In this document: in pieces, positions 29,440-40,910 of the stretch
Layout of the letters: each line of letters begins with the position of its first letter
Position numbering within the stretch: the stretch's first letter is position 1
NCBI GenBank assembly: GCA_964016885.1
Contig: OZ024745.1
Span: forward strand, 128,526,001 to 128,590,000
DNA: 64,000 bases
Direction of reading: 5' to 3'
From: Eledone cirrhosa
Lineage: Eukaryota
The notes under the pieces: model-generated
Told to the model about the DNA's origin: nothing
Seen by the model: the letters and a program-made list of their open reading frames with translations, nothing else
Databases searched by the model: none
Made by a program: the position numbers and the translations under genes

Positions 29440-29479
29440 GGCAGTTGAAAAAGCATACAATGCCGAAACCGGTACCGTT
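29440..29479 (+). ncRNA. Hammerhead-like motif with U3:A8 core, decayed stems
   Basis: GGCAG-TTGAAAA-aGCAT-aca-ATGCc-GAAA-CCGG-TA-CCGTT; AATAAA downstream. Confidence 0.55.
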
Positions 29480-30124
29480 ATTAAATGCGGAAATATCCAC
29501 TTTATAAATAAATATTTTGATATTATACTGAAAGAATCTCTTCAGCATTTTCTACTGAAAAAACCTTTTTCATCTCTACTATTTGTTTTTATATATATTG
29601 ACTCGCGTGTTACTTTTCTACATTCCATATATATATATATGTATGTATGTATATATATATATATATATATATATATATATATATATATATATATATATAT
29701 AAATATATATATATATATATATATATATATATATATATATATATATATATATATATATATATATATATATATATAAATATATATATATATATATATATAT
29801 ATATATAAATATATATATATATATATATATATATATATATATATATATATAAATATATATATATATATATATATATATATATATATATATATATATATAT
29901 ATATATATATATAAATATATATATATATATAAATATATATATATATATATATATATAAATATATATATATATATATATATATATATATATATATATATAT
30001 ATAAATATATATATATATATATATATATATATATATATATATATATATATATATATATATATGTGTGTGTGTGTGTATGTATATATATTATATATATTTG
30101 TGTGTATTCATATACCTATATGTA

Positions 30125-30495
30125 TCAGAATTAAACCAGTTTTAAACTAGTTAGACTATTATTCAACAGGGTACTCCATACTTAGGCGTTAGTAGAGTAT
30201 GACTATATTAGAAAGAGCAGGCCGCGATGGCTGATCACTTACCGTTTCAACAGTTAATTCCAGACTAGGAACTAGCTACTAGACAGGACCGTCTTAACGC
30301 ATGGGTACGCTGGGCAGTTGCCCGGAGGCCCACGAGGATAGGGGGCCCATTTGTATTTTTATTCCCGTGAGTGGTTGTGTAGGTAGGGGCCCCAGTGCTC
30401 TGCTTTGCTGTTAAGACGGCCCTGCTACTAGCTATAGTCCGGAACTAACTGTTGAAACGGCAAGAGCTATCAACCGTCAACTCCGACTCTAATAT
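30125..30495 (-). mobile_element. Fold-back element family E with a MITE in the loop
   Basis: Arms about 30205-30270 and 30432-30497; tail motif on the minus strand at 30166-30200. Confidence 0.65.
30284..30424. mobile_element. hAT-type MITE (141 bp)
   Basis: TIR CAGG(A/G)CCGTCTTAAC (14/15); 8-bp TSD CTACTAGA/CTACTAGC. Confidence 0.85.
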
Positions 30496-31964
30496 ATATA
30501 TACAAGTATCTATACCGTTTCACCTTGTAAAACCCGAAAGTTTCCACGTGGAACTCATAAAAGTAATGAGTATAACATGAACATCAAGTACTTATGTTTT
30601 TATTTTTATTTTCAAATTGTTTATGTTGATTATTTTTTAGTACTTAAATGTTACTGCTGATAGCCTAGCAGACAAGTACCTCATATGTGTGTGTGTGTGT
30701 GTGTGTGTGTGTGTGTGTGTGTGTGTGTGTGTGTGTGTGTGTGTGTGTGTGTGTGTGTGTGTGTGTGTGTGTGTGTCTGAGTGTGTGTGTATATATATAT
30801 ATACGCACACACATATATAATAGAACACTGGAGGGTTATATCCGAAGTAGTAGAGCATTCAGTCCATGGGACGAGTTTGTAACTACTTATATATATATAT
30901 ATATATATATATATATATATATATATATATATATATATATATATATGTGTGTGTGTATATATATATATATATATATATATATATATATATATGTGTGTGT
31001 GTATATATATATATATTTATATATATATATATATATATATATATATATATATATATTTATATATATATATATATACATATACACACACGTACATATATAT
31101 ATATATACTCTTATGCAATCACTCACTGACATATACACACATATGTCCCATACAATCGTAGACTGGGGGTTGTAAGGGGTGGGTGAAGTAACCGACTCCC
31201 CTGCTGCGGTCATCTAATCCAATCGTTGTAAAACAGACGACGGAGGGATGGTGGAAGTCGAACAATCTAGCGAAGTCTTGCTGAACTTCTTGTTCACCTT
31301 ATATCACCTTGGCTATCACACACACACACACACACACACACACACACACACACACACACACACACACACACACACACACACACACACACACACACACACA
31401 CACACACGCACACACACACACGCACGCACGCACACACACACACACACACACACACGCACACACCCACACACACACACACACACACACACACACACACACA
31501 CACACACACATATTGTCTCTGTCTCTGTATATATATATATATATATATATATGTATGTGTGTGTGTGTGTGTGCATGTATGTATATATATATGCATGTAT
31601 ATATATGCATGTATATATACATATATATATATGTGTATATATATGTGTGTGTGTGTGTGTATGTGTGTGTGTGTGTCTATGCCAGAGATAGATAGATAGA
31701 TAGAGAGAGAGAGAGAGAGAGAGAGAGAGAGAGAGAGAGAGAGAGAGAGAGAGAGAGAGTTTACATGTACATACGGGAATAATACTCAATTAATGTAGAG
31801 TTATTTCTTTTATTCAAAAACACGCGCACACATAGATGCACACACTCACACACACATACTCACACACACTCACATATATATATATATACATATATATACA
31901 CACACACGCACTCATATATATGTATATATATATATGCACACATACAAAAAGATAGGTAAACATT

Positions 31965-32297
31965 CATACATACATACATACATACATACATACATGCATA
32001 CGTACATACGTACATACATACATAGATACATACTTACATACATACATACGTACATACATGCATACATACATACATACATACATACATACATACATACATG
32101 CATACGTACATACATACATACATACATGCATACGTACATACATACATACATACATACATACATACATACATACATGCATACGTACATACATACATACATA
32201 CATACATACATACATACATACATGCATACGTACATACATACATACATACATACATACATACATACATACATACATACATACATACATACATACATAC
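31965..32297. repeat. (TACA)n microsatellite with periodic TGCATACG interruptions
   Basis: Direct reading. Confidence 0.9.
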
Positions 32298-33200
32298 GTC
32301 CATATATTATGAGCGACAGCTTTACGAGGTCGACCTTGCTGGGGTTTATGTTTCCTTGATTCGAGGACAGAGATCTGGAGAGTTAATAGTTTTTTGGCCC
32401 TATGGTAAGGGATTTAAATGATGTTTTGATGTTGCTATTGGTGTTAGTAGTGGTGATGGAGGGGTTGTGGTTGTTGTTGTTGTTGTTGTTGTTGGAGGTA
32501 GTGGTGGTGGTGGTGGTGGTGGTGTATTTTTATGACATAACCTTACACGGGGTACAGGTGAGGGAAGACAAAGGGAGCCAAATAATACAGAACAGAATGA
32601 AAGAATGAGAGAATGTGAGAGAGAAAAAGTAGAAGAGTGAGAATGAGAGAACGAGAGAGTAAAAAAGTAGACGGGTGAGAATGAAAGAATGAAAGAATGA
32701 AAGAGAGAAAGTAGAGGAATGAGAATGAGTGAAATAAAGATAAATAAGAATACACATAAGTTGACCAATGAATTAAAAAGGAAAGAGTATAAGTGAGATA
32801 TATATAGAGAGAGAGTGAATGGAAGAGAGAGAGAGGGGGGAGAGAGAGAGAGAGCAGAAATGGTGTGGTAAGATACCAGGTGGACCAGAATGACTTCACT
32901 TGCAGTTCTAAATAATTTGATTTCATTTTATAATATTACAATATTATGAGTTGGTAAATCTAGTAAGTTCTTTGTTATATATATATATATATTTGTTATA
33001 TATATATATATATATATATATATATATATATATATATATATATATATATATATAAAACCAAAGGTTAATAAGGTTCATTGATTACTCACAGAATATAGTT
33101 TTACAATAGATTAAAAGCACTCTACAGTGAAGTTTTCTGGAGTTATTAATATTATTCAGAATATTAATAAATGAAGACATTCACATAATCAAAATATATA

Positions 33201-33262
33201 TTTTATTATATATATTTCGAAGGTACCGTGCTGTTTTTTCAGTATGTCCTCATCAGATAAAA
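33201..33262 (-). ncRNA. Type I hammerhead ribozyme
   Basis: TTTTAT-CTGATGA-ggacatactg..cggtaccttc-GAAA-TATATA-TA-ATAAAA. Confidence 0.8.
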
Positions 33263-38908: not shown

Positions 38909-38920
38909 CTATAGTACAAA

Positions 38921-39195
38921 AGTAGTAGTAGTAGTAGTAGTAGTAGTAGTAGTAGTAGTAGTAGTAGTAGTAGTAGTAGTAGTGGTGGTGGTGGTGGTGG
39001 TGGAGTAGTAGTAGTTGTAGTAATAGTAGTAGTAGTGGTGGTGGTGGTATAGTAGTAGTAGTAGTAGTAGTAGTAGTAGTAGTAGTAGTAGTAGTAGTAG
39101 TAGTAGTAGTAGTAGTAGTAGTTGTAGTAGTAGTAGTAGTTGTAGTAGTAATAGTAGTAGTAGTAGTTGTAGTAGTAGTAGTAGTAGTAGTAGTG
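38921..39195. repeat. (TAG)n microsatellite
   Basis: Direct reading. Confidence 0.95.
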
Positions 39196-39544
39196 GAGCT
39201 GATAGTGTTAGTAGTGTGGTACGTAATGTTGTAAATACGAAATCAAAGTGTATTTACTCTATTTTTATCTTATTTATTTATTTTTCATTTAAATCTCAGG
39301 ATAATTTTCTCTGAGATTATTCCACGTAATCTATTCACTAAATTGGAATTGTTAAAACAGTCTACGTAATATCGTTACGTGTAATATTTGGTTTGGCAAT
39401 CTCGCTAAGACTTTTGATAAGTAAAATTCATATCACAATTGGCTGACAACCAAATCATACATTCTATATCCATTAATTCAAATTAACTTTACCAAACAGC
39501 AGCACCTACCCTACCCTATAACTACATCAACGGTAATAATAATT

Positions 39545-40660
39545 TTGTAAGGTTTCTCTAGCAATCGGTTGCTAGGTGAAGTGTGTTAATATTAGCCTCA
39601 GATCAGTTCCTGATCTCAGAGGCTCAATATATCATGTAGAATTCTGACGGTCTTAGTGATGGTACAAATTTGGAGACTGTCTATGGCAGGGGTGTGCAAC
39701 ATATTCCATTGGCGGGCCACTTTTGAACATTGGAACAACTATTAGGGTCATTAATATTTATTAAACATTATTTCAAAGATTCAACTTCTTTCCATAACAT
39801 GGAACTGGGAAATTATAACACATAACCCTATCAGAACAACTATTAGAGCCATTAATATTTATTAAGCACTATTCCAAAGATTCACCACAACTTCTTTCCT
39901 CCATAACATGGCACTAGGAAATTATAACACATAACCCTATCAGAACAACTATAAGGGCCATTAATATTTATTAAGCACTATTCCAAAGATTCACCACAAC
40001 TTCTTTCCATAACATGGAACTGGGAAATTATAACACATAACCCTATCAGAACAACTATAAGGGCCATTAATATTTATTAAGCACTATTCCAAAGATTCAC
40101 CACAACTTCTTTCCATAACATGGCACTAGGAAATAACACATAACCCTATCAGTGAAGCCCTTTAGTATAGGTCAACTAACAGGAAATTGTATTACGCTTA
40201 CGAAAAAATTCTATATAAGTCTACAAGATTAAAATTAAAAACGGTCATCGCGGGTCACTCTGACAGGTCTGGCGGGCCGGATTGTGGTGTGGCCCGCGAG
40301 CCGCCTGTTGCACGCCCCTGCTCTATGACGTTGGGGATCACAAGGCTTTTGATGAAAGACGTTTAAGGACCATGCCTAGAAATATCCTGACGATTGGCAC
40401 GACTTTTGTCTCTACATGGTGCTCAGTTCTTAATAGTGCCTGTAAGGTCTGCATACTTATTGATCTTTTTCCTTTTCAGCCAGATTGTGGCCTTAAGGGA
40501 TCACCATATCAATTAGAATTCATTTTGGGGTTTGTTTATTTTCACAATATCAGAGCGGTTGTGTTGGAATTGTTTGTGGTCTTGATTTCGAGGTCTCAAA
40601 ATACTCTAAATGAATCACTCCTTTCCTTGCGGATAATCATGGAATTTATGCAATGTACAC
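39545..40660 (-). pseudogene. R4/Dong-like non-LTR retrotransposon 3' end (restriction-like endonuclease), split by a MITE
   Basis: Frameshifted *DLEIKT..HNRSDIV..LIDMVIP*GHNLAEKEK..KINKYADL..TKVVPIV..LGMV; after the MITE, IDSLQICTITKTVRILHDILSL*. Confidence 0.75.
39687..40320 (+). mobile_element. hAT (Charlie-like) MITE with internal tandem repeats of about 100-110 bp
   Basis: TIR CAGGGG(T/C)GTGCAAC (13/14); TSD GTCTATGG/CTCTATGA (6/8); about 4 internal units at 39734-40152. Confidence 0.85.
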
Positions 40661-40874
40661 ATTAATTGTGTATACATTAATTCTGTATACGTTTCACAGA
40701 TGCATTGAGTTCTAACTAGATTTGAAATCCTGCTTCGACAAAGAAGGCTGCTATTGCTACTATATATATATATATATATATATATATATATATATATATA
40801 TATATATATATATATATATATATATATATATATATGTGTGAGAGAAAAACCACAAACCCGCCATCTCAATTCTA

Positions 40875-40910
40875 CTTTTGAAAAGCAGAAGAACTGCGAA
40901 ACCGGTAAAG
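40875..40910 (+). ncRNA. Minimal hammerhead with U3:A8 variant core
   Basis: CTT-TTGAAAA-GCAG-aagaa-CTGC-GAAA-CCGG-TA-AAG, then AATAAA. Confidence 0.65.

What the first reader, a model, noticed from the sequence alone, without database searches (positions are those of the whole stretch)
29440..40910. Hammerheads with a natural U3:A8 compensatory core (UUGAAAA) in two separate families
Seen: copies at 36056-, 36315+ and 40875+ read TTGAAAA-(G/A)CAG/CTGC-GAAA-CCGG-TA, and a copy with unrelated stems at 29440 reads TTGAAAA..GAAA-CCGG-TA. Known: C3 and G8 form a Watson-Crick pair in the active hammerhead, and U3:A8 is a compensatory exchange that retains some activity. Inference: the double change, shared by families with different stem II sequences, points to a selected variant-core lineage that canonical CUGANGA searches would miss.
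Basis: partly seen in the sequence, partly recalled or inferred. Interest (0 to 1): 0.75.

Follow-up and report, generated by a model that had tools for sequence, protein, structure and literature searches.

The report
Penelope retrotransposon hammerheads with U3:A8 core
These motifs are the hammerhead-shaped ends of abundant Penelope-like jumping genes whose predicted self-cutting core carries a U-A pair already described in print; the one surprise is a sister family, also in this window, that spread widely with a second change at a normally fixed core base, which would let one test whether these elements need to cut their own RNA.

Summary
The motifs are real. The 36088- and 36318+ copies are two arms of one inverted insertion. 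With 40878+ they belong to family A, the pseudo-LTR of a young Penelope-like element with intact RT and GIY-YIG frames: 11,586 exact U3:A8 cores, 50 C3:A8, 0 C3:G8. The 29445 copy is a decayed member of an older family B.

U3:A8 is fixed per family, not varying among copies. A and B are probably not independent: their endonucleases are about 50% identical and group with two more U3:A8 families. A Hydra-type family D probably gained the pair separately. Position 7 and the stems differ between families, with compensatory pairs, which points to past selection on the fold.

The variant is known (Perreault 2011; Cervera and de la Peña 2014), and this scan has noted it many times on other DNA. Cleavage is untested; one pairwise-mutagenesis study found only the G:C swap rescued activity.

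New here: sister family B' (window 7149+), about as abundant as A, is also fixed for A13C. Either it spread with a dead ribozyme or this core still cuts.

The parts
36059..36088 (-). Family A minimal type-I hammerhead motif (U3:A8 core, stem II GCAG/CTGC, ACCGGT stem III, predicted cut after A17 at 36059); left arm of the inverted insertion
36318..36347 (+). Family A motif on the right arm; stem II base pair broken (A.C)
35920..36427 (.). One 5'-truncated, inverted two-armed insertion of the family A pseudo-LTR between (TA)n tracts: left arm about 35920-36206 (long 3' end), right arm about 36226-36427 (short 3' end)
   Evidence: 96-97% identical to locus L001
40878..40907 (+). Family A motif in a solo truncated copy (about 40839-40982) between TA-rich tracts
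29445..29474 (+). Decayed family B motif (U3:A8; A.C at the stem II base; 1 proximal stem-I pair plus a distal helix that is TCCGCA/TGCGGA in most family members)
29398..29615 (+). Solo 3'-end fragment of family B, 90-95% identical to the best-scoring copies
7149..7179 (+).

Best explanation
These motifs are minimal type-I hammerhead sequences in the pseudo-LTRs of Neptune-like Penelope-like retrotransposons, with a U3:A8 pair likely inherited once by families A, B, B' and C and predicted to cut weakly, as a dimer or with protein help. Shown: the motif lies in both direct pseudo-LTRs of intact elements, about 180 nt upstream of ORF1 and about 1.1 kb downstream of the GIY-YIG domain; the window copies are 5'-truncated end fragments in (TA)n. 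Inferred: selection acted on the RNA of active source elements and kept a Watson-Crick pair at 3:8. Two RNAs or repeats would pair through the ACCGGT palindrome and cut after GUA. A competing U3-A17 pair that extends stem I would lower the rate further. Cutting would trim tandem transcripts to unit length, but family B' suggests full activity is not required for spread.
For: Family fixation: A has 11,586 U3:A8, 50 C3:A8 and 0 C3:G8 exact cores, and 90 of 90 held copies not chosen on the core read TTGAAAA. B: 100 of 100 listed have A8 and 29 of 30 have U3. C: 17 of 30 read TTGATAA at the expected place and none C3:G8. D: 24 of 27 untruncated copies have U3 and 27 of 27 have A8. Position 7 is A, A, U, G across A, B, C, D. 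Stems differ by compensatory pairs: A to B' has G-C to U-A in stem II and two C-G to U-A in stem I; a B subfamily has C-G to U-A in the distal helix (4 copies, plus U.G intermediates). Element link: 20 of 30 EN loci have the motif within 1.5 kb downstream; RVT_1 (just under its cut-off) and GIY-YIG in a 775-aa frame; 12 such frames are 99.2-99.9% identical. Tree: A, B, B', C and one long-branch row group at 89/99 with canonical family G outside; AU p 0.43 for A+B+B'+C as a clade. Literature.
Against: No cleavage data. Monomer folds are no more stable than shuffles (z from -1.67 to +0.24). [quoted passage not shown] Family B' is fixed for A13C yet abundant. Family B has A10.1-U11.1 and only 1-2 proximal stem-I pairs. 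The tree node is unstarred, uses partial sequences, and contains a row whose hammerhead I could not find. U3:G8 was not counted genome-wide for family A. The 5'-truncation map showed no clear peak at the cut site.
Confidence: 0.75

Rival explanations
1. U3:A8 marks a ribozyme that is no longer needed: the pair drifted to fixation in source elements under relaxed selection and the motif is now a passenger, with B' (A13C) as the next step of decay.
For: A13C in 22 of 23 held B' copies and no change of 1% or more at that base in four contig sets. Hammerhead catalytic mutants did not affect insertion of an anole element in vitro (PMC11167929). Naiads proliferate without canonical hammerheads (PMC8557442). 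Low activity of non-G:C swaps. AT-rich genome; both changes are GC-to-AT transitions.
Against: U3 and A8 persisted across about 50% protein divergence while stems were rebuilt with compensatory pairs. No held family is fixed for an unpaired 3:8 state. D reached the same pair in a distant clade. B' subfamily majorities differ at 0 of 26-33 motif positions against 6-21 of about 140 flank positions (weak, because copies were picked by motif patterns).
Confidence: 0.17
2. The conserved TTGAAAA...ACCGGT region is kept for a non-catalytic job, such as a dimerisation or protein-binding site, or part of the internal promoter or intron region, and only resembles a hammerhead.
For: A TATA-like segment lies upstream in A, B' and G, and canonical family G has a TTGAAAA about 33 nt upstream of its own C3:G8 hammerhead. 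The B' fold is kept despite A13C. Cervera and de la Peña leave non-cleavage functions open.
Against: All 13 hammerhead core positions, three helices and the NUH site are in order in A, B, C and D. Related families carry canonical hammerheads in the same place.
Confidence: 0.06
3. The motifs are chance or post-insertion double mutants of canonical hammerheads.
For: One such chance double exists: 1 U3:A8 copy among 3,571 of canonical family E, where about 1 is expected from the single-change rates.
Against: Zero C3:G8 among family A exact matches; U3:A8 in both pseudo-LTRs of intact young elements.
Confidence: 0.02

Closest known systems
U3-A8 minimal hammerheads of Cercyon Penelope-like elements in Schistosoma mansoni (Cervera and de la Peña 2014, PMC4209133; parts 1-2 of 4 and part 1 of 3 of the supplement read)
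   Same: Same core covariation, same place (pseudo-LTRs), mostly single truncated copies, inverted pairs, palindromic stem III, missed by the canonical descriptor (about 1,300 hits there).
   Different: Different element clade and host; 4-5 bp stem II and a 6-nt palindrome here; about ten times more copies; at least five U3:A8 families; a sister family with A13C. I did not see A13C in the parts read; figures and the rest of the supplement were not seen.
Natural U3-A8 hammerheads (Perreault et al. 2011, PMC3088659; section 8 and passages read)
   Same: C3:G8 covaries to U3:A8 in nature; the paper says such ribozymes were already shown active in vitro; weak stems II and III are common.
   Different: Not specific to Penelope-like elements; A13C is not among the variants named in the section read.
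PAc hammerhead of the anole Poseidon element (Frangieh et al. 2024, PMC11167929; parts 1-2 of 4 read)
   Same: Hammerhead in the pseudo-LTR; two fixed 3' ends downstream of it (about +80 and +140 from the cut here); AT-rich targets.
   Different: Canonical C3:G8 core, overlapping the ORF start; shown protein-assisted and dispensable for insertion in vitro. Nothing is tested for this family.
Neptune and Hydra clades of Penelope-like elements (Craig et al. 2021, PMC8557442; passages and section 11 read)
   Same: Family A has a C-terminal GIY-YIG, a CX5CxxC linker, (TA)n targets and inverted 5' arms. Family D has CxCX5C, CxxC and CxH motifs like Hydra.
   Different: Clade names rest on motifs only; no reference elements were in my trees.

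Membership tests
Minimal type-I hammerhead (PLE min-HHR) | Core N3-UGA-N7-N8-A ... GAAA ... UH with a Watson-Crick 3:8 pair | tested here: met
   U3:A8 in A, B, C, D; not met at A13 for B'
Minimal type-I hammerhead (PLE min-HHR) | Stem II closed by G10.1-C11.1 | tested here: inconclusive
   Met in A, B', C, D; family B has A-U; window copies 36318 and 29445 have A.C
Minimal type-I hammerhead (PLE min-HHR) | Palindromic stem III able to pair between two copies | tested here: met
   ACCGGT forms the intermolecular helix in cofolding; ACGTACGT in D
Minimal type-I hammerhead (PLE min-HHR) | Stem I of about 4-5 bp | tested here: inconclusive
   4 bp in the main A subfamily, 3 bp in the window's A copies, 1-2 bp plus a distal helix in B
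Minimal type-I hammerhead (PLE min-HHR) | Site-specific self-cleavage after N17 | not testable with these tools
   Needs an assay; the genomic truncation map was inconclusive
Penelope-like element, EN+ | RT plus C-terminal GIY-YIG endonuclease | tested here: met
   GIY-YIG above its cut-off, RVT_1 28.7 bits against a cut-off of 29.6 (E 1.3e-6)
Penelope-like element, EN+ | Pseudo-LTRs, 5' truncation, inverted 5' copies | tested here: met
   Direct pseudo-LTRs with the motif in L192, L194, L195, L208; inverted arms in most of the 20 stretches; window insertion
Neptune clade | CX2-5CxxC linker upstream of GIY-YIG and (TA)n targeting | tested here: met
   CGRSNCGTC in the frame printed; (TA)n flanks
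Neptune clade | Placement with reference Neptune RTs rather than Nematis | not tested
   No reference sequences were used
Hydra clade (family D) | CxCX5C linker, CxxC and CxH around conserved E and N, no CCHH | tested here: met
   Frames in L324-L327 read against the description
Non-LTR retrozyme | Non-coding tandem monomers, each with a hammerhead | tested here: not met
   Copies are truncated ends of a coding element
Rfam hammerhead families | Covariance-model match | tested here: inconclusive
   No hit on 40878 or 29445, but none on a canonical control at 61333- either

The most novel reading that the evidence does not exclude
The U3:A8 swap opened a new catalytic core. With G8 gone, A13 (its ground-state partner; recalled, not from a call) was freed, and family B' is a natural U3:A8/C13 hammerhead that still cuts and has spread to roughly ten thousand copies, breaking the 'invariant GAAA' rule.
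Probability: 0.12. Interest if true: 0.7.

Novelty: new member of a known kind. Interest (0 to 1): 0.33.

Why it matters
The U3:A8 pair itself adds little: it is published for Penelope-like elements. Its practical value is that tens of thousands of hammerhead motifs in this genome are invisible to CUGANGA searches. The useful part is a natural series in one genome: canonical G, U3:A8 A with intact young source elements, U3:A8/A13C B', and independently derived D. Craig et al. call hammerhead function in these elements unclear, and this series makes it testable whether cleavage is needed for spread.

Tried and rejected
Rfam on the whole window returned only microsatellite false hits among the 150 rows shown of 400; narrow scans missed the canonical control too.

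A pattern for family B was mistyped and gave 0; the corrected 17-mer matched only the window, so a similarity search was used.

A U3:A8 copy in canonical family E looked like within-family covariation but is 1 of 3,571, as chance predicts.

The endonuclease upstream of B in L064/L213 belongs to another element (family G, canonical core) across a TA junction; B's own is the L067/L071 type.

The 'fossil cut mark' lead was inconclusive: of 164 family A 3' ends, 6 are truncated between -22 and +4 of the cut, 1 exactly at it and 3 within 2-4 nt; the sample is biased to intact motifs. Contig loose ends shown do not peak there (359 rows not shown).

No RNA holder listed.

No intact B' or B reading frame was found in the stretches fetched.

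The EN-only and RT-only trees left A, C and G unresolved.

Paper searches for A13C or G8A/C3U with hammerhead or Penelope found nothing relevant. Przybilski and Hammann 2007, Nelson and Uhlenbeck 2008, Martick and Scott 2006 and Lünse et al. 2017 were not held, so the measured rate of U3:A8 and any earlier report of A13C in these elements remain unchecked.
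Full report
Observation. The four motifs are in the sequence at 36059-36088 (-), 36318-36347 (+), 40878-40907 (+) and 29445-29474 (+). The window is G000:C5:128,526,001-128,590,000 of a 3.0-Gb, (TA)n-rich animal assembly. The first two motifs are arms of one inverted insertion about 35920-36427. The 36318 and 29445 copies have an A.C mismatch at the base of stem II. The window also holds canonical C3:G8 hammerheads (8346+, 9526+, 33256-, 33581+) and a fifth U3:A8 motif at 7149+.

Family A. A 21-mer from the motif has 13,019 exact matches, control 0. 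With the core included there are 11,586 U3:A8 and 50 C3:(A/G)8, all 50 of them C3:A8. U3:G8 was not counted genome-wide. In held loci not chosen on the core, 90 of 90 copies read TTGAAAA, and four contig sets from one study show no change of 1% or more at U3 or A8. The long copies run upstream into a GIY-YIG domain; 20 of 30 endonuclease loci have the motif within 1.5 kb downstream. Full elements have an inverted arm, a 5' pseudo-LTR with the motif, a 400-aa ORF1, a 775-aa frame with RVT_1 (just under cut-off), a CX5CxxC linker and GIY-YIG, and a 3' pseudo-LTR with the motif. Twelve of these frames are 99.2-99.9% identical, so the family was recently active with U3:A8. This matches the Neptune description in Craig et al. 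2021 (passages); the clade name rests on motifs only.

Family B. The 29445 copy belongs to an older family (best copies 90-95% identical; 1,832 candidates, 40 scored). There are 114 exact cores; all 100 listed have A8 and 29 of 30 fetched have U3. Stem II is AGCAT/ATGCT. Stem I is 1-2 proximal pairs plus a distal helix, in which 4 of 55 copies show a C-G to U-A change and a few show U.G. Its endonuclease (L067, L071) is 49% identical to A's.

More U3:A8 families. C: 335 copies of a 17-mer; 17 of 30 read TTGATAA at the expected place, the rest are truncated or mutated, none C3:G8. D: 2,252 copies of an 18-mer; of 30 fetched, 21 TTGAGAA, 1 TTGACAA, 1 TTGATAA, 1 TCGAGAA, 2 C3:A8, 1 A3:A8, 3 truncated, none G8. 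B': see below. Position 7, the free position, is A, A, U and G in A, B, C and D while 3 and 8 stay paired.

How many origins. A, B, B' and C share ACCGGT and 47-54% protein identity (B and B' 78%). In a 10-row tree they group, with one long-branch row of unknown core, at 89/99, and canonical family G falls outside; the AU test does not reject A+B+B'+C as a clade (p 0.43), which does not prove it. Several rows are partial and were read through breaks. D is about 21% identical to A in RT and has the Hydra motifs; canonical families G and H lie between in similarity, so a second origin is likely but not shown with a rooted, well-sampled tree.

Control for chance. In canonical family E (3,571 copies) the first 100 are 95 C3:G8, 3 U3:G8, 1 C3:A8 and 1 A3:G8, and exactly 1 U3:A8 exists genome-wide, as independence predicts. 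Inserted copies therefore mutate at 3 and 8 independently. The evidence is between families: compensatory pairs from A to B' in stems I and II and in B's distal helix.

What is known. Perreault et al. 2011 report natural U3-A8 covariation and cite in vitro activity (section 8). Cervera and de la Peña 2014 found U3-A8 in Cercyon pseudo-LTRs, about 1,300 hits missed by their first descriptor, and measured low, dimer-dependent activity for a minimal motif. Against easy activity, Roberts et al. 2023 found only the G:C swap rescued this pair in a type III hammerhead (passages). Frangieh et al. 2024 found an anole element's hammerhead protein-assisted and not needed for insertion in vitro. Earlier notes of this scan describe U3:A8 many times, including in Penelope-like elements of other genomes; they are unchecked and not support.

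Mechanism. Inferred: a tandem transcript pairs two motifs through ACCGGT (cofolding gives this helix) and cuts after GUA, leaving unit-length RNA. Genomic 3' ends lie about 80 and 140 nt downstream of the cut, consistent with internal priming at two sites. In A, B, B' and D, N17 is A, so U3 can pair with A17 and extend stem I; the predicted monomer fold of the main A form does this. By analogy with the G17-C3 trap (PMC3884650, passages) this would slow cleavage. None of this is tested.

Family B'. Its pseudo-LTR is 73% identical to A's over 123 nt and its endonuclease is sister to B's. It reads GCAA where hammerheads have GAAA: 22 of 23 held copies have C13, and the four contig sets show no change of 1% or more at that base. 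It occurs 4 times in 430 kb of evenly spaced draws against 5 for A, and one subfamily is 98-100% identical to its majority. That A13 changes are strongly deleterious is recalled; A13 is listed in the minimal core consensus in PMC7151607. Subfamily indels in B, B' and one A locus start at or next to the predicted cut, which could record joined cut ends or simple slippage in A-runs. The likelier reading is an attenuated or dead ribozyme that did not stop spread; the bolder one is a core that tolerates C13 because of A8. My searches for A13C in print found nothing, but four key papers were not held and most supplements were not seen.

Verdict. Real, correctly read, and a new member of a known kind. 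Interest 0.33, mostly for the B' contrast.

Noticed in passing
window 7149-7179 (+); loci L074, L100, L105, L134, L155, L197, L296: Family B': U3:A8 hammerhead with fixed A13C, about as abundant as family A, with an 8-nt duplication starting at the predicted cut in the youngest subfamily.
   Followed up: partly
L192:3429-3517; L194:3370-3458; L334 near 4251: ORF1 (400 aa) overlaps the RT frame by 88 nt in the -1 phase with a U UUU UUA heptamer in frame, suggesting a programmed -1 frameshift; family G has a similar SFF stretch at the start of its frame.
   Followed up: no
L334 / L144 (family G pseudo-LTR): Canonical C3:G8 family G has a U.U mismatch at 10.1-11.1 in 7 of 7 copies, and a TTGAAAA about 33 nt upstream that may be a relic or duplicate of a core.
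   Followed up: no
family A, B' and G pseudo-LTRs, about 85-110 nt upstream of the motif: Shared GAGCCAC-T-run-TATAAAA-like segment followed by a possible splice donor; candidate internal promoter and intron.
   Followed up: no
L272 and other family D loci: Family D stem I has 2-4 proximal pairs plus a distal TTATTTA/TAAATAA helix, like B's bulged stem I; possible tertiary contact with loop II.
   Followed up: no
L333:3187-6688: Intact 1,167-aa frame of another Penelope-like family (H) with a canonical core; its stem III reads AGAACT, not a palindrome, in 7 of 9 held copies.
   Followed up: no
window 87-276 and at least 20 other places (e.g. 9607-9786, 45072-45660): A very abundant 190-nt dispersed repeat with a short tandem run at 45.1-45.7 kb; not identified.
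   Followed up: no
lay of window:7118-7342, run X4, record 26: One B' contig carries 11 listed A-to-G changes on one strand, resembling an RNA-editing footprint fixed in DNA; single low-depth contig.
   Followed up: no
window 8346+, 9526+, 33256-, 33581+, 61333-: Canonical C3:G8 minimal hammerheads of other families; 33256- and 33581+ face away from each other like an inverted pair.
   Followed up: partly
L349, L132: An older A-like family (EN about 79% identical to A) also has TTGAAAA, in decayed copies.
   Followed up: partly
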